Positions 26,350 to 53,090 of a stretch of 64,000 nt of DNA are shown in pieces (within the stretch, counting starts at the first letter, position 1; each line of letters opens with the position of its first letter). The translations under genes were made by a program, and so were the position numbers. The notes beneath the pieces are model-generated. The model was not told where the DNA came from, made no database searches, and saw only the letters and a list, made by a program, of their open reading frames with translations. This DNA comes from an uncultured bacterium (GTDB lineage: Bacteria > CAZDME01 > JAYEMH01): assembly GCA_964506075.1 (NCBI GenBank), contig CAZDKO010000001.1, positions 25,637 through 89,636 of the forward strand. Direction: 5' to 3'.

Positions 26350-26355
26350 TATGGT

Positions 26356-27240: not shown

Positions 27241-27260
27241 AGGGTCCTCTTTTAAAAAAA

Positions 27261-27782: not shown

Positions 27783-27784
27783 AT

Positions 27785-28306: not shown

Positions 28307-28340
28307 CGTGATTCTTTCCCGGATAAATTTTTAAATAAAT

Positions 28341-29444: not shown

Positions 29445-29458
29445 ATTGTATTTTGTAT

Positions 29459-32261: not shown

Positions 32262-32270
32262 AATTTACAA

Positions 32271-33338: not shown

Positions 33339-33340
33339 GG

Positions 33341-34282
33341 CTATTTCTCTTTCAATAATAAGTTTGCAATTTCGTTTTTGATTTTTTCCGGTTTAATAAA
33401 TTCCATACAATTTATTTTCTGGATGCATTTAGAATCATGACAGGGAATACATTTATAAGAAGTTTCAGGTAAAATTTTAACCCCTCTCCCGTATAGAAAG
33501 ACTTCTTTGGAAGAGGTGGGTCCAAAAAGAGCGATAATCTTTTTCTTTAAGGCAATGGCTAAATGCATTCCTAAACTGTCATTGGTAACAATTAACCGGC
33601 AGGAGTTAATCCAGTTGATATATTCATGGAGCTCGTTTAAGCCCTTCTGCCATGATATTTTATATCTCTTTTTTAAAAGACTTTCCAGCTTATTCCAGTG
33701 TTTTTCGGGCCAGCTCTTATTCGGCCATTTATTGCCGGCAATCCAGTTAAACCCAACGTCATATTTTACCAGAGAAGCCGGATTATAGCCAAGAATATAT
33801 TCTTTTTTTTCAGTCCACTTTTCTCCGACCATTGAAGCCAGGGCATCCTGCCAGAATTTTAAATTTTCTTTCTTTTTTTCTAAATCAAGACAGAGACTTA
33901 AAACCTTTTCCGCTCCGTCATAAGCCTGCGCCACGCCGCGGTTAACGTCAAATCTGAACCCGAATCTTCTCCAGGCATTAATGGAATCAGAAAAAGCACA
34001 GATGCCGGGGCCCTTTTCCAGATTAATGACCGTATCAAAACGTTCCCGCTGAAGCTGTAGAACCGATTCAAGGTTAAAAATTAATATCCGGTTGATAAAA
34101 GGGTTATTTTCCAGGAGCGGATAAGCTTTTTCGTCAACCAACCAGGTAACATCATCGTCTTTTAAATAGTTTAAAATTACCGTGGTTCTTAATACGTCCC
34201 CGAGGCTGGTGGTAGTGCTTATTTCCTTATCCAGTGTTTCCGAATATCCCAATTTGATGATTAAAACTTTTTTTGCCGTCAT
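33341..34282 (-). CDS. GT9-family glycosyltransferase (heptosyltransferase-like)
   Basis: ..LIVTNDSLGMHLAIALKKKIIALFGPTS.. is the GT9 C-terminal signature. Length is 313 aa. Confidence 0.6.
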   Translation of the reverse strand: MTAKKVLIIKLGYSETLDKEISTTTSLGDVLRTTVILNYLKDDDVTWLVDEKAYPLLENNPFINRILIFNLESVLQLQRERFDTVINLEKGPGICAFSDSINAWRRFGFRFDVNRGVAQAYDGAEKVLSLCLDLEKKKENLKFWQDALASMVGEKWTEKKEYILGYNPASLVKYDVGFNWIAGNKWPNKSWPEKHWNKLESLLKKRYKISWQKGLNELHEYINWINSCRLIVTNDSLGMHLAIALKKKIIALFGPTSSKEVFLYGRGVKILPETSYKCIPCHDSKCIQKINCMEFIKPEKIKNEIANLLLKEK

Positions 34283-34319
34283 AACGCCTCCACTAAAAGT
34301 TTAATTTTAAATAGTTTTA

Positions 34320-36257
34320 TTAATTAATCCAGAGTGTTCCTAAATTTATCTCTCCGGAGGGGTCGTTTTCATTACCTCTGGAGGAGACGGGTAAAATTTC
34401 TTTATTGGCTAAATTAAAGACCGTGGCTTTAACTTGATAGCTTTCCGGTTTTACCCACGAAGGGATTAACAGGAAATGGTGCTCTTTAACGATTTTCTCC
34501 TCAGGCCAGGTATCGGGCTGGTATGTTCGGTAACCTAAAACATGGTATTTATTAAACGGGGTATCTTTAGAATCAAATCGGATAAAAAGACCTAATTCTT
34601 TCGGTGTTTCTCCTGTTCGTTTCCAATAATAGATAAAGTGCATAATCTTCAGATTGCTTTTATTTTCCTGAATAATGTCATACCCCAGAAAGATTAACCG
34701 GTTATCTATGTTGACGTTACTGAGATTTTTTATTTCCGAAGCCCGTACAAACTCGCATAGATCATGCCCTTCTCTATAGTTCTTCTTGAATAAGACAATG
34801 TCGTCAACCGCTTCCAGAACCTTCCAGTTACCATTTTTTAGAAAATTCTCTATGTTAGCCGGGGCCTGAGGCGGGAAAAAGGAACTAATCAACAGGGGTT
34901 CATTAAAATCTATTAAGGCGTATTCTAAATTGTCCGGCGGATTATATTTCACCTGAGTGTGCATTTGGACCCCGGTGGCCACAAAATGCATTGAGTAAAG
35001 ATTATGCCGATGGGCTAATTTCGGTAAAAACTGAAAGGTGGCTATAACTGAAGCATCTTCGGGAATCATTTTGAGTATCTGATTTTTAGCTTCTACCAGG
35101 GTATCAATTTTACAGTTATTTATATACTTCATAAAATAAAATTGCGGGGCTCTTAAATAAAAACCGGCGGCAATTGAAACGATTACAAATCCGGAAAGCA
35201 GTTTATAACGGTAATTGTAAATTTCTCTATAAGCCAATAATTTTTTAAAAGCAAATATAACCGAAGAAAATATAAAAGGGATAAGAAAAGCGACGTATTG
35301 ATAGTGAATGTCAGCGTGAGTGCCTGCCGTTGATAAAAGGTTTTGGGCGAAAACCGGTAAAGTCATTAATAATATCCCGGGACTCAATAATCCGATAAAA
35401 GAGACGGGAACAAACAATTGATATAGATATAGAATTTTCCTGGGGGTAAAAATGAATTTGAAGATATATAGAGGATGGGTGAGGACATTCCATAGTATCT
35501 CCCCCCAGCTTCTGCCTAAATGTTTGTAAAATATACTGAAAATAAAGCCTTCCTGATATAATTTGGCCGCCTTAGCAAAGTAAGGAATAATGAATTTTAA
35601 TGACAGGATAAACCAGGCAACCCCTAAAAGAAAAGGCGTTAAAATCCATTTTTTAGACCTTTTTCTTAAAAGAGCGTATAATCCGAACATCGTCACGACT
35701 AAGCTGACATTTTCTTTGCAGGATAAAGCTAACAAAATAAAAACCATGAATTTGCCGAACTTTTCCTTATGGAAGTAATATATGGCAAAAGCAAGAAAAA
35801 ATACCGTAAAAGAGTCAAAATGGGTTTCAAAGAGATTAACAAAACCCAAAGGGGGATACATTAAATACACCAGCCCGATGATTAAAGCGAAGGTTTTATT
35901 GATTTCTGATTTCCCCAATAAATACAAAGGATACGCCGCCAGGCCCAAAAAAAGACTTTGTAAAAATAAGATGGTTACGGGATGCTGAAAAAGAGCGTAG
36001 ACAGGCAGAATCAAAAGAACAATTAGATAAAAATGTGCTCCAAAAATTGATTCTTCCAGAAAGGGAAAATAGAGAAATTTACCATGCAAACTATTCCAGT
36101 AGACAATAATGTCACTGGCAAAGTCTATATCGTAATAATTAAAAGAATGATATTTCAGGAAGCAGATATAACTGAAAAGAAAAATATAGATGAATATCAA
36201 AATCCATATGGCTTTATCAGAAAATTTATCGAAAAATTTATTGATTGGTTTTCTCAT
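34320..36257 (-). CDS. Large polytopic membrane protein, GT-C-like (DUF2079-like layout)
   Basis: About 12 TM helices in the first roughly 400 aa, then a roughly 240-aa soluble C-terminal domain. Confidence 0.35.
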   Translation of the reverse strand: MRKPINKFFDKFSDKAIWILIFIYIFLFSYICFLKYHSFNYYDIDFASDIIVYWNSLHGKFLYFPFLEESIFGAHFYLIVLLILPVYALFQHPVTILFLQSLFLGLAAYPLYLLGKSEINKTFALIIGLVYLMYPPLGFVNLFETHFDSFTVFFLAFAIYYFHKEKFGKFMVFILLALSCKENVSLVVTMFGLYALLRKRSKKWILTPFLLGVAWFILSLKFIIPYFAKAAKLYQEGFIFSIFYKHLGRSWGEILWNVLTHPLYIFKFIFTPRKILYLYQLFVPVSFIGLLSPGILLMTLPVFAQNLLSTAGTHADIHYQYVAFLIPFIFSSVIFAFKKLLAYREIYNYRYKLLSGFVIVSIAAGFYLRAPQFYFMKYINNCKIDTLVEAKNQILKMIPEDASVIATFQFLPKLAHRHNLYSMHFVATGVQMHTQVKYNPPDNLEYALIDFNEPLLISSFFPPQAPANIENFLKNGNWKVLEAVDDIVLFKKNYREGHDLCEFVRASEIKNLSNVNIDNRLIFLGYDIIQENKSNLKIMHFIYYWKRTGETPKELGLFIRFDSKDTPFNKYHVLGYRTYQPDTWPEEKIVKEHHFLLIPSWVKPESYQVKATVFNLANKEILPVSSRGNENDPSGEINLGTLWIN

Positions 36258-38532
36258 TGATGTATCTCTTTAATCCTGAATAATTATAGAGAAGCATTAC
36301 TGAGATGATTGAAAGCCCCAGAAAATAACAGAATAAAGTGAACACATATAATTTAGGCTTGTATATAAATCTCAGTGTATGCTCGCCTTTATCAATAATA
36401 ACAGACTTAAAAGCTAAATTAGCTTCATATATTACGCCCTGTTTTCCGTTGATAAAGACTTTCCATGATTTGTCAAAAGCGTCACCGTAATAAAGTAAAC
36501 TGTCTCTCTCCGCATTAATGTCCAGAATAATTTCATTAGGGCCGAATTTTTTTACCGTGATTTCTCCGCAAGTTTCGTTGTTTACGTTATCCGGTGATTT
36601 CTCTAAATGAGAATAAGCGGAGGGTAAATTTTTCTCGATAAAAATTACCTGCCGGGCAGTATCGGGGTCTATTTTACTTAAGGCTTCGATTATTTTATCC
36701 CGCGGTAAAACGATGACGTTAGAAACAAGCCGAAGTTTAGGAGCGGATATGCCCGCCAGGATGCTTTTAATTTCATTGGGAATTTGCTGGTGATTGGCAA
36801 ATTCAAAAAAATCCTTCATTTCATAAATGTGGGTGGTGACGTCGCGGGCTTTAGTGCTGTAAGCGGTAAATATTTTAAGCGTTGCCGGCACAAAAGCATA
36901 AAAAGGATATTTAGGACCGATTACTGGAATCCGGTAGTTTTCTTCAGGCGGTTTAACCGAATACAATAAAGGGGGGGTAATTCTCGGCAAAGTTACGAAA
37001 TTGTAAACATTGCTGTTAAACAGAGCCAAATCAACGATTATAAAAAATAATATCAGGGTATATTTAGTTTTTATATTTATCTTTTTAAAGTTTAATAAAA
37101 TGAAAATAAGAGGTATGCCGATAACGAAAAAGATTAAATTGGAATCAGATAAAGAAAGTGAATCTTGAAGCGTGGCTTTTAAGGCGTCGTTCATATACGC
37201 TAAATAGCCCAATAAAATGTGATATTTTAAAGTTAAAAAATTACTGAGACTGATGGTATTGGCATTGATTAACCAGGCGAAAAAGCATATCAGCACGCCT
37301 AAAAAGAAATAAGGTATTTTATAAAACTTGAGTCTGGATTTAAAGGCGGCTTCAAAAATTACATCCGAGCCGATACAGGTGAAATAAACTAAACAAAAGA
37401 TGAAAAAGGGGCCAAAAGTATGGGTGTTTCTAATTATTGAGAAAAAAGGGAAAAATTTATTAAAAAATAAGTAGAGGGGGCTTCTGTACCCCAACATCAA
37501 ACTCATGGTCAGTAAAATAGTTATTATGAATCCCCATTTATATTTATGACGGGAAAAACCCATTCCGAATATAGCCAGAAAAAGAGGAATTAACCCAATA
37601 TACAGAAAAGATTCAGATACATAATACCAGTTAAAGAAATGCAATATGAAAGAGTAAGGAGTAAGAAGATTTAAAAAATCAGCCGGAAAAGAATGGGCGG
37701 CGAAAGGGGCTTCGAACATTTTTACCGTGGGAACCACATCATAGGTATAAGCTAAATAAATAGGCAGAATTTTTATTGTTAGAAGAAATAATATGGATAA
37801 GGCCAAAAAACTGACGGCTTTATGGTTTTTTAAGAACATGCCTAATTTCGGCCAGCGGATGCTTTTGGATAAAAGTAAAGACAATAAAAGAATAGTTACC
37901 GAACTTATTATGAACATTGAATGGTAGGAGGGCAGTGTTATCCCTAAAAAAAGTACCGTTAATAAAAGGAATTTAGGTTTCTGCTCCTCCAGGAATCTTA
38001 CGGACGAATATACGATCCAGGGTAGTAAATAAAAGGCTAAAAGGAAAGCGTGCTGTCTTAAATAAGAGGTAGAGAAAGACGAAAAAGAGATGGCGACAAA
38101 AGCAAGGAAAGCACTGATTTCATATCTGGCTACATGCCGGTAAAAAAAGTATGCCCCGCAGATAAAGATCAAATAGCGTAAGAATAAATCCCAGTGGTAA
38201 AGGGTGAGTAAATTAATATGTAACAGCTTGCCGGTCAAAATTAACAGCAGCGTTGAAGGATCAGATAGATGAAGGATATTTATGTTTAGAAAAAAGATTT
38301 CCCCGCAGTTCATATAGGGATTCCAGAAGGACCAGACGCCGTGCTGGAGATTATCGGCAAAGTAATGGAATATTCCATACCAGATGATACTGTCATGTGA
38401 AACCATTAATTTATTGGAAATTAATAGTTGCCATTGTAGAATTATCAAGCCCGAAACAACAAAAGCGATGGCTAAGAAAATTTTTAAAATTTTGTGCTTT
38501 AACATAGCTAAATATTTAATAGTTAGAAACAA
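36238..38532 (-). CDS. Large polytopic membrane protein, GT-C-like (YfhO-like layout)
   Basis: 764 aa. About 14 TM helices followed by a C-terminal beta-rich domain and one terminal TM helix. The start overlaps the upstream gene by 20 nt. Confidence 0.35.
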   Translation of the reverse strand: MFLTIKYLAMLKHKILKIFLAIAFVVSGLIILQWQLLISNKLMVSHDSIIWYGIFHYFADNLQHGVWSFWNPYMNCGEIFFLNINILHLSDPSTLLLILTGKLLHINLLTLYHWDLFLRYLIFICGAYFFYRHVARYEISAFLAFVAISFSSFSTSYLRQHAFLLAFYLLPWIVYSSVRFLEEQKPKFLLLTVLFLGITLPSYHSMFIISSVTILLLSLLLSKSIRWPKLGMFLKNHKAVSFLALSILFLLTIKILPIYLAYTYDVVPTVKMFEAPFAAHSFPADFLNLLTPYSFILHFFNWYYVSESFLYIGLIPLFLAIFGMGFSRHKYKWGFIITILLTMSLMLGYRSPLYLFFNKFFPFFSIIRNTHTFGPFFIFCLVYFTCIGSDVIFEAAFKSRLKFYKIPYFFLGVLICFFAWLINANTISLSNFLTLKYHILLGYLAYMNDALKATLQDSLSLSDSNLIFFVIGIPLIFILLNFKKINIKTKYTLILFFIIVDLALFNSNVYNFVTLPRITPPLLYSVKPPEENYRIPVIGPKYPFYAFVPATLKIFTAYSTKARDVTTHIYEMKDFFEFANHQQIPNEIKSILAGISAPKLRLVSNVIVLPRDKIIEALSKIDPDTARQVIFIEKNLPSAYSHLEKSPDNVNNETCGEITVKKFGPNEIILDINAERDSLLYYGDAFDKSWKVFINGKQGVIYEANLAFKSVIIDKGEHTLRFIYKPKLYVFTLFCYFLGLSIISVMLLYNYSGLKRYINEKTNQ

Positions 38533-38535
38533 ATG

Positions 38536-39996
38536 TTATACGTATATTTTAATTAACGCTTCTAAAAGCTTAAAGCTAAGTTTAATCAGCCCGCCCCACT
38601 CCTTTGGTTTTAAATACCACTTTGGGGGAAGATAAAACCAGCCGGCCGGCCCTATTCTTTTTATCAATAGTTCCATAACCCTGTTTAATCTTAAAGAGAA
38701 AAGAAGGTTGGCTTTGATTATGTCTTTTCTTAATGTCTCTTCATCGGTTGTTATCGGAACGTAAGGCAATTTCGCCTGGGTTTTGGAATCCTGGACCAGT
38801 GAGCCGCAGGCATTAAGATTACCCCAGTCTTTTTCGATAAAAAGCCTGCCTTCGGCTTTGGCGATTTCATATAATTTGGTTCCCGGATAGGGAGTAGCGT
38901 TATTAAAGCGGACATAATCCAGATTCAATTTTTTAGCTAATTTATAATCCTGCCATCTTTCTTCTCTGGTTTCGGTGGGGAGACCAAATATAAATGTTCC
39001 GGAAACCTCGAAGCCGTGTTGCTTAGCCATTTTTACCGCTTCAATATTGGCCTGCACGGTTTCTCTTTTATTCAATATGACCATTAATCGTTCCGAAGCA
39101 GTTTCCAATCCAAAATTAATCAATCTAAAGCCCGCTTGTTTCAAAATATCAAGCATATTGTCATTAACCGCATCGGCTCTCGTCTGACAATCAAAAGTTA
39201 TTTTTTTATGAAATTGTTTTTTTATTATACCTTCGCATAGTTCAATGACTCTTTTAGGGTTAGCCGTAAAATTATCGTCAAGGAAATTAATGTGGGTTTG
39301 TTTATATTTGTTGACCAGAAGGTCTATTTCATCAAGGACAATCGCCGTAGGCACATAACGAAATTTCTGCCCGGAAATTAATCGCTGGCTGCAAAATATA
39401 CAGTCGTAAGGGCATCCCCGGGAACTGGCGATAAAACTAAAATTATATCTGCCGATGTCTTTCTCAAAGAGATAATAGGGAAAGGGGGAGAGCTGACTTA
39501 GCTCGGGTAAATCAGTATCGGGGTTATGAATGACTTCTCCGTTCTTTTTAAAAGACAGTCCTTTTATATTTGAATAGTCGCCTCTATTTTTAATCGCCTC
39601 GTAAAGAGTCACTAAAGTTTCTTCTGCTTCGCCGCGAAGGACAAAATCAATGTCGGCATTTTCTAAAACTTCTTCAGGGAGGACAGTCGGATGAATTCCC
39701 CCCGAAATAATTTTTGAATCCGGATATAAAGTTTTGATTAAACGGGCAATTTCTTTACTTCTTCCCACGCAGGCGGTTAAAGTGGATAGACCAAAGATAT
39801 ATGGCGGGGAGGTAGTTTTGACGGATTCTTTAAGTAAATCTCTGGATATGGGTTGGATATGTTCATTGACTATGGTTATTTTTTTACCGTGAGAAAGTAA
39901 GCTTGAGGCTAAATAACCGATGCCGATAGGAACACTCAAAGGGACATATTTATCAAAAATACCGAATTTGGTTGATTTTGGATTTATTAAAATCAT
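38536..39996 (-). CDS. B12-binding-domain radical SAM protein (class B)
   Basis: An N-terminal Rossmann-like B12-binding region (MILINPKSTKFG..IGIGYLASSL..) followed by RGCPYDCIFCSQ (CX3CX2C). Length is 486 aa. Confidence 0.65.
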   Translation of the reverse strand: MILINPKSTKFGIFDKYVPLSVPIGIGYLASSLLSHGKKITIVNEHIQPISRDLLKESVKTTSPPYIFGLSTLTACVGRSKEIARLIKTLYPDSKIISGGIHPTVLPEEVLENADIDFVLRGEAEETLVTLYEAIKNRGDYSNIKGLSFKKNGEVIHNPDTDLPELSQLSPFPYYLFEKDIGRYNFSFIASSRGCPYDCIFCSQRLISGQKFRYVPTAIVLDEIDLLVNKYKQTHINFLDDNFTANPKRVIELCEGIIKKQFHKKITFDCQTRADAVNDNMLDILKQAGFRLINFGLETASERLMVILNKRETVQANIEAVKMAKQHGFEVSGTFIFGLPTETREERWQDYKLAKKLNLDYVRFNNATPYPGTKLYEIAKAEGRLFIEKDWGNLNACGSLVQDSKTQAKLPYVPITTDEETLRKDIIKANLLFSLRLNRVMELLIKRIGPAGWFYLPPKWYLKPKEWGGLIKLSFKLLEALIKIYV

Positions 39997-42623: not shown

Positions 42624-43409
42624 ATGGACTGGGGAATGAAAAATCGTTTAAATACACTGATGCCGAACGGGCGTTGTTTTTTTATGCCCATTGACCACGG
42701 TTATTTTCAGGGGCCGACGAGGGGATTGGAAAAACCGGGCGAAACGATAAAGCTACTCCTTCCTTATGTTGACGCTCTTTTTTGCACCAGAGGCGTTCTT
42801 CGTTCATCAATTGACCCTCTGAAAAGTAAACCGATTGTTTTAAGAGTCTCGGGATGCACCAGTATGGTCGGGGGAGACCTGGCTAATGAAGAAGTTACCA
42901 CCTCAATCGAAGAGATTATTCGCCTCAACGCCTCGGCCGTGGGAGTATCTGTTTTTATCGGTAGTAATTATGAACGACAGACGTTACTTAATCTTTCCAA
43001 AATGGTTAATGACTGCGAAAATTACGGTATCCCGGTCATGGCCGTAACCGCCGTAGGCAAGGAACTGGAAAAACGGGACGCGCGGTATCTCTCTTTATGC
43101 TGCCGGATTGCGGCCGAACTGGGAGCGCGCGTGGTCAAAACTTACTGGTGTGAAAATTTTGAGAAAGTCGTTCAGGGCTGTCCGGTTCCGGTGATTATGG
43201 CCGGCGGACCAAAATGCGAAACAGAAAAAGAGGTTTTTGAATTTGTTTACGACGGGATGCAGAAAGGCGCGGTCGGCATCAATCTGGGACGGAATGTCTG
43301 GCAGAATCCTGCTCCGGTTTCCATAGCTAAAGCCTTAAGAGCGATCGTTCATAAAAAAGCAACGGTTAGAGAAGCAGTCGAGATATTTAAAGAAAATAAA
43401 AAGGAATAA
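42624..43409 (+). CDS. Class I aldolase of the DhnA/FbaB (DeoC/LacD-fold) family
   Basis: FFMPIDHGYFQGPTRGLE near the N-terminus. Length (261 aa) and TIM-barrel layout are typical of DhnA-type fructose-bisphosphate / ADH-synthase aldolases. Confidence 0.65.
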   Translation: MDWGMKNRLNTLMPNGRCFFMPIDHGYFQGPTRGLEKPGETIKLLLPYVDALFCTRGVLRSSIDPLKSKPIVLRVSGCTSMVGGDLANEEVTTSIEEIIRLNASAVGVSVFIGSNYERQTLLNLSKMVNDCENYGIPVMAVTAVGKELEKRDARYLSLCCRIAAELGARVVKTYWCENFEKVVQGCPVPVIMAGGPKCETEKEVFEFVYDGMQKGAVGINLGRNVWQNPAPVSIAKALRAIVHKKATVREAVEIFKENKKE

Positions 43410-43481: not shown

Positions 43482-43841
43482 ATGTCTATAACTCGAACCA
43501 AACCATATGATTTAGAAGAAAGAACTTTAGAATTTGCTAAGGGAATAATTAAACTATGTAAAAAGATGAACAGGGATACAATTAATATAAAACTAATTGG
43601 ACAATTAATAGCTTCTTCAACCTCTGTGGGAGCAAATTATAGAGAGGCAAATGAAAAACTAAGCAAGAAAGATTTTCTGCACAGGATGAGGATTTCTAGA
43701 AAAGAATGTAAGGAAACAAGTTTTTGGTTAGAGCTTATTAAAGAGACAAATGGCCAATTTGAAAACGAATTAAACAGTTTTATTAGAGAATCTCAAGAGT
43801 TAAGAAATATATTTACCTCTATTATCGATAAATCTAAATAA
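43482..43841 (+). CDS. Four-helix-bundle protein (23S rRNA intervening-sequence protein family)
   Basis: ..LEFAKGIIKLCKKM..IGQLIASSTSVGANYREANEKLSKKDFLHRMRISRKECKETSFWLELIKE matches the conserved core of this family. Length is 119 aa. Confidence 0.7.
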   Translation: MSITRTKPYDLEERTLEFAKGIIKLCKKMNRDTINIKLIGQLIASSTSVGANYREANEKLSKKDFLHRMRISRKECKETSFWLELIKETNGQFENELNSFIRESQELRNIFTSIIDKSK

Positions 43842-44985: not shown

Positions 44986-47709
44986 ATGAATTGTAGATTT
45001 TTCAAAATCGTCAGATTACTCCTCGGAAAATTTTTATTATTTTTAATTTTAGCCGGGTTTATTTTTTCACCTTTCGCCTTTGCCTCTAATGATGACTATA
45101 GTCCTTATGGAGTTATGACTCACTTTGAAAGGCCGGATTTCTATAAGATTGATGACCTTAGAAAAAGCTGTAAATTAATTAGAGAGGCCGGAATACAGTG
45201 GGTGCTTACCTGTTTTAACTGGAAAGATGTTGAACCGCATCAAGGCCATTTTGATTTTTCCCAGACGGATAGAATTGTATATATCACTTCTTCCCATAAT
45301 TTAAAGTTGATGCCTTTAATCTGGCTCTGTCCTGAATGGGCGGAAGATTCTTCGGGAGGCGGCAAAGAAAAAGAATCTTATCTTTATCCCCCCCGGGATA
45401 AAGAGGAATTCGCCAATTTTGTTTATCAGCTGGTAAAAAGGTATAAAAATAAAATTAAATACTGGCAGATTTGGGGGGAAGAAAATACCCCCGGCCGGTG
45501 GCTACCCGAATCAGACCCGGCGGCATACCTTGATTTACTCAAAGCTTCCTACCAGAAAATAAAAGAAGCCGACCCGGAGGCCAAAGTTGTTCTGGGAGGT
45601 TTGGCTTTGCATGATTTAGACAAATTTTTAGAAAAACTCTATCAGCTTGGCGGTAAAGATTATTTTGATATTCTGGCGATCAATCCTTACGTTCACCCCA
45701 CGCTTAATTATGACCCTTATCTGGATAAAAAAGGGGAAGCCCTTGAACTTTTAAAAGATTATATTTTCAGCGTCCGCCAGATTATGGCCAAGCACGGAGA
45801 TTCTTTAAAACCGTTATGGATAACCGAAATAGGTTCTCCCGGACAGGACCAACCGGGAGATTGGTGGTTACTGGGAGAAACTCCGACCGAACAGGAACAG
45901 GCCGAATGGGTGACGAAAATCTACACCGAACTTCTAAAAGAAGACCTGGTTGATAAAATATTCTGGTATAATTTCAGAACCCCGCCCGACCAGCTAAAGG
46001 CCCGCGCTGGTTTGGTGGAAACAGATTACCGGATAAAACCGGCTTATCAGGCTTATAAAAAACTGCCCAAACTCAAAAAACGCCAGGGCTTTAATGTTTT
46101 TCTTATTTCCGTCGATTGTCTGCGGCCCGACCACTTAAGCTGTTACGGTTACTGGCGGCCGACGACTCCGACCATTGATAAACTGGCTGGAGACGGAGTG
46201 AGATTTGCCCGGGTAATCTCGGTGGCCCCCTGGACATCGCCTTCTTTAATTTCTTTACTTACCTCTTTATACCCGCCGGTGCACGGGGTGGACGGACGAA
46301 CCAGATCTTTACCGGAGGGAGCGCCGACGCCGATTAAGATATTGAAAAATCTGGGTTACCTGGTTCCCGGAATATCTTATATTCACACCGTCTGGAATTA
46401 TCAGAATTTAGGGTTTGACGTCGTTAAAGAACCCACCCGTTTTGAAGAAAAAAATGAAGAGGTCCGAATTAACGAATGGCTGGATAAGAACTACCGAAAA
46501 AAGTTCTTTTTCTGGCATCATTTTTATACGCCTCATATACCGTATAATCCCCTGCCTGAGTACGAGAAACTCTTTTTACAAGATGAAAAGGAGCTCCCCC
46601 GGGAGATTAGAAAAAAACTGCGTTTTGTCCGGACTCAGCCGGCCATTCGAGAAGGGGAGTTAAGTTTTACGGAAGAGGAACTTTTCTATATTATATCTCT
46701 TTATGATGCGGAGATAAGACAGTTAGATGACCAGATAGCTTCGGTGGTGAATAAACTTGAAGAGCTGGGTATACTTTATAAGACTATTCTGGTTATTACG
46801 GCCGACCACGGGGAAGAATTTCTTGAACACGGTAATATCGGACACGCCTCAACCACTTTAGCGGCCAGTTTGTATGATGAGTGTCTGCGCATTCCGCTTA
46901 TTATGTGGAATCCCCGCCTTTTACCCCGGTCTGAAATAATCAGCCAGCAAATCCAGAATATAGATATTATGCCGACCATATTTGAGCTTTTAGGTATTGA
47001 TTTAAATATACCGGTAGACGGTAGTTCTCTTATCCCTTTAATTCAGCAGAAAACCGATAAACCCCCCAGGGAATATGCTTTTAGTGATACCACCCCCGGC
47101 GGTTTTCAATCTACCGAGGAACAGGAAAAAAGAAGAATTAATTCCATAAGAACAGAGGATTGGAAATTAATTTATAATTACAGTTCAGAAAAGGAAAATT
47201 ATCTTTTATTTAATTTAAGAGAAGACCCGAAGGAAGAAAAAAATATAATTGAAGATTATCCGCAGATAGTCCGGCAGTTGACTTTTCAGCTTCGCAGATG
47301 GGTTTTTAACTGTCTGGTTAAAAGGAAATGGTTTCTGGCTCAAGGTAAAAAAAAGGAGGAGAAACTCCTTCCCCCTGATTTAGCGGGTAAGATCAGCTCT
47401 CCGGAAGTTATTTATCCCGGCGATAATTCAAATTTAACATACGAAGAAAACAGCGGGAAAGTTATTCTTGAATGGACCGGTGACCCCCGGCTTTCATATA
47501 TCGTTGAATACGACGTCGGTCTTGGTAATTTTAATATGAAAGGTGATTTCCCGTCCGAAGGTACCCGTCAGGAATTTGGTCCTATCCCTAAGGACGTCTG
47601 GAAGCTTTTACCCGCTTATAATCCCTGGAAATTCAGGGTTAAGGTTAAAGGCCAGGAAAATTTACGTAGCCGATGGATTCGTTTTAATTTTTCCCTCCCC
47701 GAAGAATAA
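44986..47709 (+). CDS. Secreted two-domain protein: glycoside-hydrolase-like TIM barrel plus an alkaline-phosphatase-superfamily (sulfatase-like) domain with a non-canonical active site
   Basis: Signal/TM, then ..LTCFNWKDVEPHQGHFDFSQTDRIV.. (GH5/GH42-like barrel). At about residue 370: FLISVDCLRPDHLSCYGYWRPTTPTIDKLAGDGVRF..APWTSPSLISLLTSLYPPVHG. This aligns to the sulfatase signature AP-x-C-x-PSR with Cys->Thr and Arg->Leu. Confidence 0.5.
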   Translation: MNCRFFKIVRLLLGKFLLFLILAGFIFSPFAFASNDDYSPYGVMTHFERPDFYKIDDLRKSCKLIREAGIQWVLTCFNWKDVEPHQGHFDFSQTDRIVYITSSHNLKLMPLIWLCPEWAEDSSGGGKEKESYLYPPRDKEEFANFVYQLVKRYKNKIKYWQIWGEENTPGRWLPESDPAAYLDLLKASYQKIKEADPEAKVVLGGLALHDLDKFLEKLYQLGGKDYFDILAINPYVHPTLNYDPYLDKKGEALELLKDYIFSVRQIMAKHGDSLKPLWITEIGSPGQDQPGDWWLLGETPTEQEQAEWVTKIYTELLKEDLVDKIFWYNFRTPPDQLKARAGLVETDYRIKPAYQAYKKLPKLKKRQGFNVFLISVDCLRPDHLSCYGYWRPTTPTIDKLAGDGVRFARVISVAPWTSPSLISLLTSLYPPVHGVDGRTRSLPEGAPTPIKILKNLGYLVPGISYIHTVWNYQNLGFDVVKEPTRFEEKNEEVRINEWLDKNYRKKFFFWHHFYTPHIPYNPLPEYEKLFLQDEKELPREIRKKLRFVRTQPAIREGELSFTEEELFYIISLYDAEIRQLDDQIASVVNKLEELGILYKTILVITADHGEEFLEHGNIGHASTTLAASLYDECLRIPLIMWNPRLLPRSEIISQQIQNIDIMPTIFELLGIDLNIPVDGSSLIPLIQQKTDKPPREYAFSDTTPGGFQSTEEQEKRRINSIRTEDWKLIYNYSSEKENYLLFNLREDPKEEKNIIEDYPQIVRQLTFQLRRWVFNCLVKRKWFLAQGKKKEEKLLPPDLAGKISSPEVIYPGDNSNLTYEENSGKVILEWTGDPRLSYIVEYDVGLGNFNMKGDFPSEGTRQEFGPIPKDVWKLLPAYNPWKFRVKVKGQENLRSRWIRFNFSLPEE

Positions 47710-47877: not shown

Positions 47878-48510
47878 ATGAAAAACTTATTAAAATTTCT
47901 CTCTGAGTTCTCGCCGGTAGCGGTTATGGTTGCTTCTTTAATGTTAACTTTAACCGTGGTTAGCCTGGTCATTTTAACCGGTTACTATGCCTGGGAAACA
48001 AGAGCCTTAAGGAAAATCGCTTCCAAAGCCGTTTTTGCCGAACTTTCTCCCCAGGTTTTTCTGGAAATTTCCGATTCTATAACCGAGGTAAATAGAGATG
48101 AAAAAGATAAAGGTCTCTATATAGCGGTCACGGTTGATATAAAAAACGCCGGGAAAACAGCCGCCAGTCAGATTCAAGGCGGGTATGAGATATTTTTTAA
48201 AGAGGAGAAAAAAGAAGAGGGAATACTCCCGCTTTTACCGGTTTTATTTCCTTCCCAGAATTTACCCGTGCTTTTTAAAACGATTTTTATTCCTCTGGAT
48301 GATAAACAACTGGATAGTTTTACCGAATTGATAAATAACAGGAGAAACCCACAAAACCCAACGGTTAAAGACAGCGATAAGATTATTACGCCGGTGATGT
48401 TAAACGTTCATTTTAAATATATTGACCCGGCCGGGCAAAGTCAGAATTACGGGAGCAGGTTTATATATATCCCCGTTACCCAAAAATGGATGTATACACA
48501 TGAGCAGTAG
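47878..48510 (+). CDS. Hypothetical membrane-anchored protein
   Basis: One N-terminal TM helix (VAVMVASLMLTLTVVSLVILTGYYAW). No recognisable family. Confidence 0.4.
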   Translation: MKNLLKFLSEFSPVAVMVASLMLTLTVVSLVILTGYYAWETRALRKIASKAVFAELSPQVFLEISDSITEVNRDEKDKGLYIAVTVDIKNAGKTAASQIQGGYEIFFKEEKKEEGILPLLPVLFPSQNLPVLFKTIFIPLDDKQLDSFTELINNRRNPQNPTVKDSDKIITPVMLNVHFKYIDPAGQSQNYGSRFIYIPVTQKWMYTHEQ

Positions 48511-49129
48511 ATTAAGAAAAGAGCTGGCTGGATTCGGCCGGAAGCTCTTTGAAAAAGGATTAATTCATGGTTCGGGCGGGAATATAAGCGCGCGGGAAGG
48601 GAAATTTGTTTATCTTTCCCCGAGCGGGTTTTATCTTAATAATATTAAGCCTTCCCAGCACATTAAGCTGAATTTAAGAACCGGTAAAAAAGAAAATTCT
48701 GTTTTAAAGCCCACCTGCGAAACCCCTATGCATCTGGCCTGTTATCGAGCCAGAAGTGATATTCAGGCGGTCATCCATGTCCACCCTCCTTTTGCCATTG
48801 CTTCAAGCTGTGCCGGAATAACCCTCAGAGCTTTATTTCCGGATTTTGTCGTTTTAATCGGGGATAAGGTGCCTTTAGTTCCTTATTTTATTCCCGGCTC
48901 TCAAATTATCGGGGAAAGATTTAAAAAGATTTTTAAAAAATATTCAGCCGTCTTGATTCAGAATCACGGACTGGTTACCGTGGGTAAAAATCTTTCCGAG
49001 GCCTTTCTCCGGGCAGAAATTATTGAGGAAGCGGCTAAGATTTATTACCTGGCTCGCTCACTGGGCCGGGTGAGGTTTCTATCCAAAAAAGAAATAGTGG
49101 AGATTGAAAAGAAATATAAAGGGAAATAG
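48500..49129 (+). CDS. Class II aldolase/adducin-family protein (fuculose-phosphate aldolase / MTRu-1-P dehydratase-like)
   Basis: MSSRLRKELAGFGRKLFEKGLIHGSGGNISAREG..AVIHVHPP..NHGLVTVG. The likely start is ATG 48500, in frame inside the longer track ORF that starts at 48422. Confidence 0.65.
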   Translation: MSSRLRKELAGFGRKLFEKGLIHGSGGNISAREGKFVYLSPSGFYLNNIKPSQHIKLNLRTGKKENSVLKPTCETPMHLACYRARSDIQAVIHVHPPFAIASSCAGITLRALFPDFVVLIGDKVPLVPYFIPGSQIIGERFKKIFKKYSAVLIQNHGLVTVGKNLSEAFLRAEIIEEAAKIYYLARSLGRVRFLSKKEIVEIEKKYKGK

Positions 49130-50449: not shown

Positions 50450-51658
50450 ATGCAAAAAATATTAATTGGTTTGTTTTTAACCATTATCCTGGTTTTGTCT
50501 TCATCCTCTGTTTCTCAGGCGCTTACCTGGGAGATAAATGAGATTTCAACCACGGCCAACAATTTCTCCCCCCAGATAGACGGAAGCAAAGTGGTCTGGG
50601 CGGGAGCCGACGATTATACTGCCGACATATATCTCTACGATATCAATACCGGAACGGCCGCCAACATTTCAAATAATTCTGAGACAGATAGTTCTCCTCA
50701 GATAAGCGGGAATAATGTCACCTGGTATGGTAGTAACGATTATGATATATCCTTTTATAATGGCACAGAGGTAACGAATATTACCAACAGCCCGGGTTTT
50801 TATGACCTATACCCCGAGATAGATGGAAGCAAGGTGGTCTGGGGAGGAAGAGTTATAGGCACTAGCGTGGCTGAAATATATCTTTACGATTACAGCACCG
50901 GAGGGACAACTAATCTTTCCAACACCCCAGATTACGGTGATGTGGATCCCCGGATAAGCGGGAATTATGTGGTTTGGAACGGGGGCTCTTCCTCCGGACA
51001 AAGCCAGATATACGGTTATAACGGGACGGCGAAAATCCAAATTACAAACAACCTTTATTCAAATACAGCTCCCCAGATAAGCGGAAATTACGTGACCTGG
51101 AAGGGTTATTACAGCGGTAATTACCTCATAGGGCTTTACGATTTTAGTACCGGTGAGACAACTAATATTTATAGTGGTACCACTTGGCACGCTTCACCTC
51201 AGATAGGCGGGCATTATGTAACCTGGCTTCAAAGTGACGGCGTATACCTTTACGATATTGAGACCACGAATATGATTCAGCTTTCCACCAATTATTATTC
51301 CAGCGGGTATAACATAAGCGGGAATAATGTGGTCTGGTGTGAATATGAGAGTATCAACCCCGATCCTTTCGATCCCTTTGGTTCAACAATGTATAAGTAT
51401 GAGATATTCTTTTATGATGGGTCAAATGTAACTCAGATTACCGATAACGGCGAGACCCTGTTTGAGTCTTATTCTGCTCCGGTAATAGACGGGAATAACG
51501 TGGTTTGGACGGCGGATAGGGCCGTATTTCTGGCCAAAGGGTTAGGGGATGAAGAAGAAGAGGAAGAAGAATTAATCCCCGAACCGGCCTCACTTTTGCT
51601 TTTGGGGATGGGGGTATTGGGAATAGGGTTGTTCAGGAGGAGAAGGTTGTTGGGATGA
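50450..51658 (+). CDS. Secreted PD40/TolB-like beta-propeller repeat protein with a PEP-CTERM sorting signal
   Basis: Signal peptide ..SVSQA|LTW. About 8 repeats of the form SPQIDGSKVVW..DIYLYDINTGTAANIS. An acidic stretch EEEEEEE is followed by IPEPASLLLLGMGVLGIGLFRRRRLLG (PEP motif, TM helix, Arg cluster). Confidence 0.75.
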   Translation: MQKILIGLFLTIILVLSSSSVSQALTWEINEISTTANNFSPQIDGSKVVWAGADDYTADIYLYDINTGTAANISNNSETDSSPQISGNNVTWYGSNDYDISFYNGTEVTNITNSPGFYDLYPEIDGSKVVWGGRVIGTSVAEIYLYDYSTGGTTNLSNTPDYGDVDPRISGNYVVWNGGSSSGQSQIYGYNGTAKIQITNNLYSNTAPQISGNYVTWKGYYSGNYLIGLYDFSTGETTNIYSGTTWHASPQIGGHYVTWLQSDGVYLYDIETTNMIQLSTNYYSSGYNISGNNVVWCEYESINPDPFDPFGSTMYKYEIFFYDGSNVTQITDNGETLFESYSAPVIDGNNVVWTADRAVFLAKGLGDEEEEEEELIPEPASLLLLGMGVLGIGLFRRRRLLG

Positions 51659-51815: not shown

Positions 51816-53090
51816 ATGAAAAAATCAGTGATTTACTTATTTTCTTTCCTTAGCGCCGCGATTATTCTCGGTATTTTCCCTTCTTCAGGTTTTACCCAAA
51901 CGCACACCATTACCCAGCTTACGGCGCCAGACATAACAGAGGCAGATGAACCTAGAATAAATAACAATGGAGAAGTAGTCTGGTCTGGAGTCGATGAGAA
52001 CGGTAATTATCAGGTACTCTTTTACGATGGTACCACCACATATCAACTTACAGATGATGATAATGATAATTATATGCCTCAGATAAATAACAATGGTCAG
52101 GTAGTTTGGTTGGGAGCTGGCGATATATATTTCTGGGATGGAATACATCCGGCCGGTCCTACCATAACCCGGGTTACCACCACTGACTATTGGGAGAACT
52201 CCTACCATATCAACGATAACGGAGAAATTGTCTGGTATGGTGGTCCGGGCGGCGTGAGCATGAATTATGAAATATATTTCTGGGACGGAAATGATTCCTA
52301 CCAGATTACGGATAATACTTTAGGAGACCATGAACCTAAAATCAACAATAATGGTCGGGTAGTCTGGAATAAGTTTGATGGTCATGACCTGGAAATATAT
52401 TTCTGGGATGGGATAAATCCGGCCAGTCCTACCACAATCCAGATTACCAATAATACTTTGAGTGCTCAATATCAACAGATAAACAACAATGGACAGGTAG
52501 TCTGGTGTGAAGGTTATCATAATGGCGGTAATGAAGACCTATATTTCTGGGACGGAATGGACCCTCTGAACCCCAACATCATCTCGCTGGGCATGGAAGG
52601 CAATGGCAGGTCCTATTATCCCCAGATAAACAATAACGGAGCAGTAGTCTGGTATATGCATGAGTATGATCTTGACCCGGAGAGTGAAGAAGATGATTAT
52701 GAAATCTATTTATGGGACGGAACTAGCATTATCCAGATTACCGATAATGACTTTGATGACGGGGTAGACGGGGTACAGATAAACGATAATGGAGACATAG
52801 TGTGGGTGGGCGGAGTTTTTTGGGGTGCAGGAATAAATACTGAATTATACTTTTATGATGGTTCTACCGGACTTATTACCCAGCTTACCGAGGATACGGC
52901 AACCCACTATTCTCCCCAAATAAATAATAATGGGGATATAGTCTGGTACAGTTACAATGAAGATGAGGAAATGGTCGTCTTGTTTGCCAGCAGAGACCAG
53001 GGTGAAGACGTCATTCCCGAACCGGCCTCACTTTTGCTTTTGGGGATAGGGGTGGTGGGTATAGGGTTGTTCAGGAAAAAGAAAAATTAG
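51816..53090 (+). CDS. Secreted beta-propeller repeat protein with a PEP-CTERM sorting signal (paralog)
   Basis: Signal peptide. Repeats PQINNNGQVVW..EIYFWDG..QITDN. The C-terminus is IPEPASLLLLGIGVVGIGLFRKKKN. The roughly 60 nt encoding the sorting signal is nearly identical to 51579-51640. Confidence 0.75.
   Translation: MKKSVIYLFSFLSAAIILGIFPSSGFTQTHTITQLTAPDITEADEPRINNNGEVVWSGVDENGNYQVLFYDGTTTYQLTDDDNDNYMPQINNNGQVVWLGAGDIYFWDGIHPAGPTITRVTTTDYWENSYHINDNGEIVWYGGPGGVSMNYEIYFWDGNDSYQITDNTLGDHEPKINNNGRVVWNKFDGHDLEIYFWDGINPASPTTIQITNNTLSAQYQQINNNGQVVWCEGYHNGGNEDLYFWDGMDPLNPNIISLGMEGNGRSYYPQINNNGAVVWYMHEYDLDPESEEDDYEIYLWDGTSIIQITDNDFDDGVDGVQINDNGDIVWVGGVFWGAGINTELYFYDGSTGLITQLTEDTATHYSPQINNNGDIVWYSYNEDEEMVVLFASRDQGEDVIPEPASLLLLGIGVVGIGLFRKKKN

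What the first reader, a model, noticed from the sequence alone, without database searches (positions are those of the whole stretch)
44986..47709. Secreted fusion of a glycoside-hydrolase-like barrel and a sulfatase-like domain whose formylglycine motif reads T-S-P-S-L
The alkaline-phosphatase-superfamily domain keeps the N-terminal metal-binding block (VDCLRPDH..YGY..TPTIDKLAGDGVRF). At the position of the sulfatase C/S-x-P-S-R signature it has A-P-W-T-S-P-S-L. The modifiable Cys or Ser is replaced by Thr and the Arg by Leu. That rules out a formylglycine-dependent sulfatase. It points to a phosphoryl- or phosphonate-transfer activity, or to a non-catalytic binding module, fused to a glycanase.
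Basis: seen in the sequence. Interest (0 to 1): 0.55.

Follow-up and report, generated by a model that had tools for sequence, protein, structure and literature searches.

The report
Glycanase fused to threonine-type sulfatase-like enzyme
This gene encodes an exported three-part protein in which a sugar-chain-cutting domain is joined to a domain that looks like a sulfatase but has the catalytic residues of a phosphate-transferring enzyme; that domain belongs to a very large, untested family usually mislabelled "sulfatase".

Summary
ORF 44986-47709 (+) encodes a 907-aa protein with four parts:
- a signal peptide;
- a PslG-like clan GH-A barrel with both catalytic Glu (E165, E281);
- a sulfatase-fold domain (PF00884 + SGSH_C);
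- an FN3/Ig-like beta-sandwich.

At the C/S-x-P-x-R position the protein reads T417-S-P-S-L421. The register was checked against solved sulfatases. The Thr is not a strain mutation: all 7 orthologs keep it, and so do 134 of 136 aligned top representatives and 106 of 108 assignable metagenome relatives (3 further ORFs gapped); the rest have Ser, none Cys.

The two sulfate-binding Lys are also replaced (Y465, H620), as is the second metal Asp (C378). D377, T417, H517, D607, H608 and H620 are near-invariant. They map one-to-one onto the catalytic set of the phosphoethanolamine transferase EptA (hhalign probability 98%).

A formylglycine sulfatase is therefore excluded. The conserved catalytic set argues against a non-catalytic module. 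The best reading is a Thr-nucleophile metallo-phosphoesterase or phosphotransferase built on the sulfatase scaffold, acting together with the glycanase on a phospho-decorated glycan. The substrate is inferred, not shown.

The Thr lineage is huge (about 13,000 clusters at 50% identity score E<=1e-30 to the domain) and I found no characterised or solved member. The GH fusion is rare and confined to Omnitrophota/PVC MAGs. Interest is moderate.

The parts
44986..47709 (+). Whole ORF, 907 aa including stop: signal peptide + GH barrel + Thr-type sulfatase-fold domain + beta-sandwich
44986..45084 (+). N-terminal signal peptide (residues 1-33, MNCRFFKIVRLLLGKFLLFLILAGFIFSPFAFA | SNDD); could alternatively be an uncleaved signal anchor
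   Evidence: Sequence features; modelled as helix 3-27; similar hydrophobic N-termini in the orthologs. Inferred, no predictor was run.
45097..46065 (+). PslG-like clan GH-A (beta/alpha)8 glycoside hydrolase domain (residues ~38-360)
   Evidence: phmmer to PslG 4zn2/5bx9 E 2.4e-18 and to 5jvk E 1e-16; weak Pfam GH10/GH42/GH39 hits
45472..45486 (+). W-G-E-E-N: acid/base motif with E165 (45478-45480). The Asn of the canonical N-E(P) motif is replaced by Gly164.
   Evidence: Aligned to PslG 'WNEPN'. G-E is found only in the fusion clade; all 20 GH-only relatives have W/Q-N-E.
45817..45834 (+). W-I-T-E-I-G: catalytic nucleophile E281 (45826-45828)
   Evidence: Aligned to PslG 'wsTEwg'; invariant in orthologs and kept in most relatives
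46078..47355 (+). Sulfatase-fold alkaline-phosphatase-superfamily domain (residues 365-790), including the SGSH_C-type C-terminal subdomain
   Evidence: PF00884 E 3e-42 and PF16347 E 1e-19; Foldseek to S1 sulfatases and PMHs E ~1e-24; pLDDT mostly above 90
46111..46134 (+). V-D-C-L-R-P-D-H: first metal ligand D377 (46114-46116). The second sulfatase Asp is replaced by C378.
46225..46248 (+). A-P-W-T-S-P-S-L: nucleophile T417 (46234-46236) at the formylglycine position and L421 at the Arg position
46378..46386 (+). Y465-I-H467 at the sulfatase G-K-x-H position: the sulfate-binding Lys is replaced by Tyr and the His is kept
   Evidence: Alignment to 5g2v 'igKwH'; conserved in close orthologs only
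46534..46536 (+). H517, invariant His, equivalent to the sulfatase active-site His and to the His of the 'gsHgp' motif in E. coli EptA
46804..46845 (+). D607-H608-G-E-E-F-L-E-H615-G-N-I-G-H620: metal ligands D607/H608, and H620 at the position of the second sulfate-binding Lys (D+13)
   Evidence: EfAS residue map D311/H312/K324 in PMC12421950
47401..47706 (+). C-terminal ~100-aa beta-sandwich (FN3/Ig/Calx-beta-like) accessory module
   Evidence: AF2 pLDDT 89.6. Only weak Foldseek hits to Calx-beta/FN3, TM 0.3-0.5. No Pfam or PDB sequence hit. Follows the Thr-type domain in ~45 of 150 representatives.

Best explanation
The protein is an exported, three-module enzyme.

Module 1 is a retaining clan GH-A endoglycanase related to PslG, with acid/base E165 and nucleophile E281.

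Module 2 has the fold of a true (S1-type) sulfatase but not its chemistry. A single Zn/Mn-type metal would be held by D377, T417, D607 and H608. The metal activates the T417 hydroxyl, which attacks a phosphate ester, most likely a diester. This forms a covalent phospho-Thr intermediate that is then resolved by water (esterase) or by an acceptor hydroxyl (transferase). H517 and H620 take the places used in EptA/MCR-1 for the second metal or leaving-group handling.

Module 3 is an FN3/Ig-like sandwich that travels with module 2 and probably helps hold a polymeric substrate.

I infer that the two catalytic modules act on one phospho-decorated or phosphodiester-linked polysaccharide outside the cytoplasm. 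One strips or cleaves the phosphoester and the other cuts the glycosidic backbone. Known parallels are sulfatase-GH fusions and PelA/PgaB-type 'hydrolase + de-decorating' enzymes.

Shown: architecture, register, conservation and the residue mapping. Inferred: metal identity, phosphate rather than sulfate, hydrolase rather than transferase, and the substrate.
For: - Architecture and register.
- Thr and Leu are invariant in the orthologs.
- The D/T/H/D/H/H constellation is near-invariant in 54 homologs, in the top 150 of an exhaustive search and in 111 ORFs from 80 metagenome loci, with no Cys at all. This is purifying selection on a catalytic site.
- Residues specific to sulfate/FGly chemistry are all replaced: Arg->L421, Lys->Y465, Lys->H620, second Asp->C378. 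The EfAS residue map and its mutagenesis serve as reference (PMC12421950).
- hhalign of the Thr-clade profile against E. coli EptA gives probability 98.2% and E 4e-14. It aligns D377, T417, H517, D607, H608 and H620 with the Glu, Thr, His, Asp-His and His of the EptA motifs gEts, gtaTavs, gsHgp, sDHge and iylHg. From my own knowledge, these correspond to MCR-1 E246, T285, H395, D465, H466 and H478.
- The GH module keeps both catalytic Glu.
- Fusion partners elsewhere in the clade are glycan- or envelope-related: PA14, Golvesin_C, VanZ, TPR.
- Neighbours are enriched for glycosyltransferases and for a second AP-superfamily type, Phosphodiest/NPP-like.
Against: - There is no biochemical data for any clade member and no solved structure.
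- Overall sequence and fold are closest to true sulfatases and phosphonate monoester hydrolases, not to Thr-type phosphotransferases.
- Genomic context is heterogeneous. The fusion orthologs share no conserved operon, and the unbiased neighbour census shows only modest glycan-gene enrichment.
- A subset of clade members sits next to PAPS-synthesis genes, which could point to sulfate esters.
- G164 replaces the conserved Asn in the GH module, so its activity or specificity may be atypical.
Confidence: 0.45

Rival explanations
1. Same Thr-phosphoenzyme chemistry, but the role is biosynthetic. The domain would transfer a phospho-substituent (phosphoethanolamine, phosphoglycerol, phosphocholine) onto, or between, chains of the cell's own exopolysaccharide in the periplasm. 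The PslG-like module would act as the chain-trimming hydrolase of the secretion machinery, as with BcsG + BcsZ for cellulose, soluble OpgB for periplasmic glucans, or PelA.
For: - The catalytic set is that of transferases.
- Closer stand-alone relatives lie in glycan-biosynthesis clusters containing GT2/GT4, Wzy, a flippase, NeuB and ManC.
- An O-carbamoyltransferase lies directly downstream of a fusion ortholog and of P0011, and occurs in 3 of 80 further loci.
- PilZ or c-di-GMP genes lie near several fusion orthologs.
- From established knowledge, PslG itself is part of a biosynthetic machinery.
Against: - There is no multi-TM domain to reach a phospholipid donor; only one N-terminal hydrophobic segment is present.
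- BcsG shows no significant profile match.
- The gene in this window is not in an EPS operon.
- The unbiased census shows only modest GT enrichment.
Confidence: 0.2
2. The domain still works on sulfate esters, as a formylglycine-independent, Thr-nucleophile sulfatase or sulfo-group editing enzyme for sulfated polysaccharides.
For: - Scaffold and closest relatives are true sulfatases.
- PAPS-synthesis genes (APS kinase, CysD, CysN/C) are adjacent or close in L018, L023, L026 and L034. That is 4 of 85 sampled loci, against roughly 0.3 expected by chance on my rough estimate.
- From established knowledge, Thr/Ser AP-superfamily enzymes have weak promiscuous sulfatase activity.
Against: - Both sulfate-binding Lys and the FGly-stabilising Arg are replaced, while the His pair typical of phosphotransferases is present.
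- No efficient Thr-nucleophile sulfatase is known.
- PAPS genes accompany only about 5% of loci and may simply mark multiply decorated glycan clusters.
- The exported protein cannot use cytoplasmic PAPS.
Confidence: 0.1
3. The sulfatase-like domain is a catalytically dead binding module that targets the glycanase to an anionic (sulfated or phosphorylated) glycan.
For: It lacks the canonical sulfatase nucleophile and Arg. Pseudo-enzymes do occur in this superfamily (established knowledge).
Against: Metal ligands, Thr and two His are near-invariant across very divergent sequences. That pattern is not expected for a non-catalytic module. The same constellation is the working site of EptA.
Confidence: 0.05
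4. T417 is post-translationally oxidised by a radical-SAM maturase to a ketone whose hydrate substitutes for formylglycine, giving a cryptic sulfatase.
For: - Two radical-SAM/SPASM genes lie in the window at 28341-29444 and 32271-33338 on the minus strand.
- SulfAtlas notes that Thr oxidation would give a ketone (PMC5066984).
Against: - Those genes do not match anSME models. They lie 12-16 kb away, on the other strand, in an unrelated cluster.
- The maturase recognition Arg is absent (L421).
- The sulfate-binding Lys are lost.
- No such modification has ever been shown in vivo.
Confidence: 0.02

Closest known systems
Formylglycine-dependent (S1) sulfatases and phosphonate monoester hydrolases (e.g. 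SpAS1 4upi, BT4656 5g2v, RlPMH 2vqr, EfAS 9koq)
   Same: - Best sequence and fold matches: profile E down to 6.5e-73, Foldseek E ~1e-24.
- Same two-subdomain architecture, including SGSH_C.
- Same positions for the first Asp, the Asp-His pair and the active-site His; x-P-S retained after the nucleophile.
   Different: - Nucleophile is Thr, not Cys/Ser->FGly.
- Arg of C-x-P-x-R is Leu.
- Both sulfate-binding Lys are replaced (Tyr, His).
- Second metal Asp is Cys.
- No maturase is recognisable nearby.
Phosphoethanolamine transferases EptA/MCR-1 (and, more distantly, LtaS, OpgB, GacH)
   Same: - Thr nucleophile at the N-terminus of the same helix.
- Metal ligands acid/Thr/Asp/His, plus two His, at equivalent positions (hhalign probability 98%).
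- Extracytoplasmic location.
   Different: - No N-terminal multi-TM lipid-donor domain.
- Asp instead of Glu as the first ligand.
- Has the sulfatase-type C-terminal subdomain.
- Family HMM scores far below cut-offs: 34 bits against 500.
- T-S-P-S motif rather than T-x-N-x-E or G-T-S-T.
PslG (GH39, Pseudomonas aeruginosa Psl endoglycanase; 4zn2/5bx9)
   Same: (beta/alpha)8 barrel aligned over ~300 residues. Acid/base Glu and nucleophile Glu are conserved. Exported.
   Different: - About 25% identity.
- The Asn preceding the acid/base Glu is Gly (W-G-E-E-N), uniquely in the fusion clade.
- Fused to two further modules.
- Not encoded in a psl-like operon.
Bifunctional glycan-processing fusions: GH78-sulfatase of Formosa agariphila (6hr5), PelA (hydrolase + deacetylase), PgaB
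   Same: One exported polypeptide combines a glycoside hydrolase with an enzyme that removes or edits a substituent of the same polymer.
   Different: The partner here is a Thr-type AP-superfamily domain. I found no described example of this pairing in the searched literature.

Membership tests
S1 formylglycine-dependent sulfatases (SulfAtlas S1) | C/S-x-P/A-x-R signature with a modifiable Cys or Ser | tested here: not met
   T417-S-P-S-L421. The register was confirmed against 5g2v, 4upl and 4upi. Invariant in the orthologs. 0 Cys among more than 290 relatives.
S1 formylglycine-dependent sulfatases (SulfAtlas S1) | Sulfatase alpha/beta fold with C-terminal subdomain | tested here: met
   PF00884 E 3e-42 and SGSH_C E 1e-19; Foldseek to S1 sulfatases E ~1e-24 with TM(target) 0.6-0.7
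S1 formylglycine-dependent sulfatases (SulfAtlas S1) | Sulfate-binding Lys pair and a second metal-binding Asp | tested here: not met
   Lys->Y465, Lys->H620, Asp->C378; reference residue map of EfAS in PMC12421950
S1 formylglycine-dependent sulfatases (SulfAtlas S1) | Maturase (FGE or anSME) encoded in the genome | tested here: inconclusive
   None is recognisable in the 64-kb window. Two rSAM/SPASM proteins do not match anSME models. The whole genome is not available.
Thr-nucleophile phosphotransferases of the AP superfamily (EptA/MCR-1/LtaS type) | Catalytic Thr plus acid/Asp/His metal ligands and two additional His at equivalent positions | tested here: met
   hhalign of the Thr-clade profile against E. 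coli EptA gives probability 98.2% and aligns all six positions
Thr-nucleophile phosphotransferases of the AP superfamily (EptA/MCR-1/LtaS type) | N-terminal multi-spanning membrane domain that presents the phospholipid donor | tested here: not met
   Only one N-terminal hydrophobic segment (residues ~11-33), followed directly by the GH barrel
Thr-nucleophile phosphotransferases of the AP superfamily (EptA/MCR-1/LtaS type) | Score above the curated family cut-off | tested here: not met
   NCBIfam P_eth_NH2_trans 33.7 bits against cut-off 500; LtaS 18.9 against 970; BcsG has no significant profile match
Thr-nucleophile phosphotransferases of the AP superfamily (EptA/MCR-1/LtaS type) | Phosphoryl transfer through a phospho-Thr intermediate | not testable with these tools
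   Needs enzymology and mass spectrometry
Clan GH-A / GH39 PslG-like glycoside hydrolases | (beta/alpha)8 barrel with the nucleophile Glu after strand 7 | tested here: met
   PslG alignment E 2.4e-18; E281 in W-I-T-E-I-G aligns with the PslG nucleophile; alternating strand/helix pattern in the model
Clan GH-A / GH39 PslG-like glycoside hydrolases | Asn-Glu (N-E-P) acid/base motif after strand 4 | tested here: inconclusive
   Glu165 is present but the Asn is Gly164 in all fusion orthologs. All 20 GH-only relatives keep N-E.
Clan GH-A / GH39 PslG-like glycoside hydrolases | Assignment to one CAZy/Pfam GH family above threshold | tested here: inconclusive
   GH39 scores 19.4 bits, below its cut-off of 26. 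GH10 (28.7) and GH42 (26.6) are just above their cut-offs but match only partially.

The most novel reading that the evidence does not exclude
The Thr-type domain represents a large, functionally unexplored enzyme class. It would be a direct offshoot of true sulfatases that swapped formylglycine chemistry for a Thr/His-based active site, making it a natural intermediate between sulfatases and phosphoethanolamine/phosphoglycerol transferases. In Omnitrophota it would be coupled to a glycanase whose -1 subsite has been remodelled (Asn->Gly next to the acid/base). The pair would then form a dedicated 'phosphoglycan depolymerase' for polymers substituted at or near C2. Alternatively, the clade would contain the first formylglycine-independent sulfatases, linked to PAPS-dependent glycan sulfation clusters.
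Probability: 0.2. Interest if true: 0.7.

Novelty: new variant of a known kind. Interest (0 to 1): 0.45.

Why it matters
- **Annotation.** Tens of thousands of proteins labelled 'arylsulfatase A-like' or 'sulfatase' in genomes and metagenomes, including this one, cannot be formylglycine sulfatases. Counting them inflates estimates of sulfated-glycan degradation capacity, for example in PVC-group bacteria.
- **Enzyme evolution.** A sulfatase-scaffold lineage with a phosphotransferase-type catalytic set is a natural test case for how the alkaline-phosphatase superfamily switches nucleophile and substrate charge.
- **Biology.** The fusion with a PslG-like glycanase gives a concrete, testable hint at the substrate class (a phospho-decorated polysaccharide) for a family with no known function. 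It may also bear on how Omnitrophota, which are largely uncultured, handle their own or their hosts' envelope polymers.

Tried and rejected
- **Alignment A2**, built from all hits, mixed GH-only and sulfatase-only proteins across domain borders. I discarded it and used A3 for modelling.
- **Mn-dependent arylsulfatase EfAS** (NCBIfam hit) as a possible Thr precedent. The paper shows Cys61->FGly, so it is not a precedent.
- **BcsG as closest analogue.** No significant profile match.
- **anSME candidates in the window.** The two rSAM/SPASM proteins give only weak generic hits.
- **Promoter/terminator scan**. Counts equal those of shuffles, so it is uninformative.
- **C-terminal module.** No Pfam or PDB sequence hit. 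Foldseek gives only generic FN3/Calx-beta similarity.
- **'Always in glycan-biosynthesis clusters'.** The first five contexts suggested this, but the unbiased census of 131 neighbours showed only modest enrichment, so I downgraded it.
- **Conserved operon around the fusion orthologs.** None found.
- **Phosphonate-specific reading.** No supporting evidence.
Full report
**1. What is there**

ORF 44986..47709 (+) encodes 907 aa. Pfam finds Sulfatase PF00884 (residues 370-671, E 3e-42) and the sulfatase C-terminal subdomain SGSH_C (629-770, E 1e-19). It also gives weak clan GH-A hits (GH10/GH42/GH39) in residues ~55-360.

Against solved structures, the N-terminal part matches PslG (4zn2/5bx9, E 2.4e-18 over ~300 residues). 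The central part matches S1 sulfatases and phosphonate monoester hydrolases.

An AlphaFold model built on a clean 27-sequence alignment (pTM 0.81, sulfatase-like domain mostly pLDDT >90) shows three parts: a (beta/alpha)8-type N-terminal domain, the sulfatase fold and a C-terminal beta-sandwich. Foldseek puts S1 sulfatases and PMHs on top at E ~1e-24.

The C-terminal ~100 residues, modelled alone at pLDDT 89.6, resemble FN3/Ig/Calx-beta sandwiches only generically (TM 0.3-0.5). They have no Pfam or PDB sequence match.

The N-terminus (basic residues, then ~18 hydrophobic residues, then AFA|SN) reads as a Sec signal peptide. This is an inference from the sequence. All feature coordinates were verified by translation.

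**2.

HMMER alignments to 5g2v, 4upl and 4upi place T417 on the formylglycine Cys/Ser and L421 on the Arg of C/S-x-P-x-R. A profile of relatives gives the same register. In the model T417 opens helix 417-426 after strand 405-411, which is the standard nucleophile position.

They do not: seven orthologs at 51-69% identity all read APWTS[PA][SA]L.

**3. It is a lineage, not an oddity**

| Sample | Thr | Ser | Cys | Source |
|---|---|---|---|---|
| 54 sulfatase-domain homologs from the word-indexed search | 53 | 0 | 1 | |
| 136 aligned of the top 150 representatives | 134 | 2 | 0 | |
| 111 ORFs in 80 metagenome loci (3 gapped) | 106 | 2 | 0 | |

The single Cys sequence in the first sample is the most distant hit, and it is a canonical DD...CSPSR...K sulfatase.

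An exhaustive HMMER scan of 1.84 billion cluster representatives with residues 362-790 found 13,170 proteins at E<=1e-30 and 57,603 at E<=1e-10.

D377, H517, D607, H608 and H620 are near-invariant across all these sets, and H615 is mostly conserved. The positions that define sulfate/FGly chemistry are replaced together:
- Arg -> L421 (Leu, His, Ile, Val or Met elsewhere in the clade);
- the G-K-x-H Lys -> Y465;
- the Lys at D+13 -> H620;
- the second metal Asp -> C378 (Ser, Thr or Ala elsewhere).

The EfAS paper gives a mutationally validated reference map for the sulfatase residues: D20, Q21, C61, R65, K110, H112, H220, D311, H312, K324 (PMC12421950). EfAS itself is a Cys-FGly enzyme, so the NCBIfam 'Mn arylsulfatase' hit is not a Thr precedent.

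**4. What the active site resembles**

I fetched real eptA and bcsG genes from E. coli K-12. The Thr-clade profile aligns to EptA with hhalign probability 98.2% (E 4e-14, 263 columns). The alignment superposes:

| Query residue | EptA motif |
|---|---|
| D377 | Glu of 'gEts' |
| T417 | catalytic Thr of 'gtaTavs' |
| H517 | 'gsHgp' |
| D607/H608 | 'sDHge' |
| H620 | 'iylHg' |

This is the full catalytic set of phosphoethanolamine transferases. BcsG gave no significant match.

By overall similarity the domain is still much closer to true sulfatases. NCBIfam scores arylsulfatase at 5e-41 against the PEtN transferase model at 1e-8 and LtaS at 5e-4, all far below the family cut-offs. The best PDB profile hit is SpAS1 at 6.5e-73. 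None of the 60 best PDB matches shown belongs to the Thr lineage, so the lineage appears to have no solved structure.

So the domain works like an EptA-type Thr metallo-phosphotransferase but is a member of neither family. It fails the S1 signature, and it lacks the multi-TM donor domain and the family scores of the PEtN/LtaS group.

**5. The glycanase half**

E165 (acid/base) and E281 (nucleophile) align with the PslG catalytic glutamates. The Asn that precedes the acid/base in clan GH-A is Gly164 (W-G-E-E-N) in every fusion ortholog. From established knowledge, that Asn contacts the 2-OH of the -1 sugar. All 20 GH-only relatives examined keep W/Q-N-E.

This is a conserved, clade-specific remodelling of the -1 subsite. 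It may accommodate a substituent, or a different group, at C2. That is speculation.

**6. Distribution and context**

The three-module fusion occurs in only two of 185,579 species-representative genomes. One is labelled Candidatus Omnitrophota and one 'Planctomycetales'. A handful of metagenome contigs also carry it. The sulfatase-like + beta-sandwich pair without the GH is common: ~45 of the top 150 representatives.

Around the six fusion orthologs there is loose synteny but no operon. Shared genes are an LsrF/DeoC-type aldolase, a Zn-ADH, a nucleoside transporter and CNNM/NIL. Recurrent nearby genes are:
- PilZ or c-di-GMP genes (L003, L021, L022);
- polysaccharide deacetylases (L001, L004);
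- an O-carbamoyltransferase directly downstream (L004);
- a giant GH94 protein (L022).

Five stand-alone relatives gave suggestive contexts. Four lie in glycan-biosynthesis clusters and two lie next to PAPS-synthesis genes. A larger test tempered this. In 80 loci (908 kb), CysD/CysN occur in 2 and carbamoyltransferase in 3. A Pfam census of 131 nearest neighbours is heterogeneous: Phosphodiest/NPP-like 5, GT1 5, TPR 4, MacB/FtsX 4, GT2 3.

Other clade members are fused to PA14, Golvesin_C, VanZ, TPR or a second copy of the domain. Context therefore points weakly to envelope or glycan chemistry and does not fix the substrate.

**7. Maturase question**

The window holds two radical-SAM/SPASM genes (28341-29444 and 32271-33338, minus strand). 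They match no anSME model and only weakly match generic SPASM families. They belong to a separate envelope-glycan cluster. No FGE-like gene was seen among the window ORFs I scanned; the ORFs before 21 kb were not scanned.

**8. Literature**

The SulfAtlas paper already states that about half of the PF00884 seed sequences carry Thr (TxNxE, the LtaS type) and should not be called sulfatases (PMC5066984). My searches found no characterised Thr-type member of the sulfatase-proper scaffold and no PslG-type fusion of this kind. The library covers only open-access papers.

**9. Verdict**

The most likely mechanism is metal-assisted attack by T417 on a phosphate (di)ester through a phospho-Thr intermediate. 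It would act alongside a PslG-like glycanase on an extracytoplasmic phospho-decorated polysaccharide (confidence 0.45). A biosynthetic transferase role (0.2) shares the same chemistry. Thr-based sulfate-ester chemistry (0.1) is kept alive by the PAPS-gene neighbours. A dead binding module (0.05) and Thr oxidation (0.02) are unlikely.

Novelty: a new variant of a known kind, namely a Thr-nucleophile AP-superfamily enzyme on a sulfatase scaffold in a rare GH fusion. Interest is moderate (0.45).

Noticed in passing
window 45472-45486 (G164-E165): The clan GH-A 'N-E' acid/base motif reads 'G-E-E/Q-N' in all fusion orthologs. All 20 GH-only relatives keep N-E. This is a clade-specific change of the -1 subsite.
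   Followed up: partly
L018:1948-2541, L023:3739-6944, L026:13172-15766, L034:121-2119: PAPS-synthesis genes (APS kinase, CysD, CysN/C) lie next to Thr-type sulfatase-like genes in 4 of 85 sampled loci. In L023 and L034 they are divergently adjacent. This is more than the roughly 0.3 loci I estimate by chance, and it is unexplained.
   Followed up: partly
L004:10724-12958, L018:8581-10395, L042, L060, L092: A NodU/CmcH-type O-carbamoyltransferase lies directly downstream of a fusion ortholog (P0007) and of a 38%-identical stand-alone relative (P0011). It is also present in 3 of 80 further loci.
   Followed up: partly
window 21134-39996 (minus strand): A long envelope-glycan-type cluster: three PMT/TPR membrane proteins, two radical-SAM/SPASM proteins, another radical-SAM protein, a GT2, E1 dehydrogenase alpha/beta subunits, a heptosyltransferase-like GT9, DUF2079, a YfhO-like protein and a B12-binding radical-SAM enzyme. 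It is not linked to the finding by operon structure.
   Followed up: partly
window 50450-51658 and 51816-53090: Two PEP-CTERM-anchored proteins, one with beta-propeller repeats. They imply an exosortase system, which is usually associated with EPS production, in this genome.
   Followed up: no
window 42624-43409: A DeoC-family protein scores above the curated cut-off (349 against 297 bits) for the LsrF-type 3-hydroxy-5-phosphonooxypentane-2,4-dione thiolase. The aldolase/Zn-ADH pair recurs near several fusion orthologs (L001, L021).
   Followed up: no
window 43482-43841: A free-standing '23S rRNA intervening sequence protein' (PF05635) gene sits between the aldolase and the Zn-ADH.
   Followed up: no
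window 47878-48510 / 48422-49129: A 210-aa hypothetical protein with an N-terminal hydrophobic segment and no family match. The listed TTG start of the following class II aldolase overlaps it by 89 nt, and the aldolase domain begins at residue 34, so the true start is probably further downstream.
   Followed up: no
80 metagenome loci L025-L104: Thr-type genes are often present as two or more paralogs per locus (111 ORFs in 80 loci). They frequently neighbour a second AP-superfamily type (PF01663 Phosphodiest/NPP-like).
   Followed up: partly
P0070, P0075, P0077 (relatives): Several close relatives of the Thr-type domain are fused to a VanZ-like membrane domain, and one also to PA14. Others (P0020-P0024) carry a Golvesin_C domain.
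   Followed up: no
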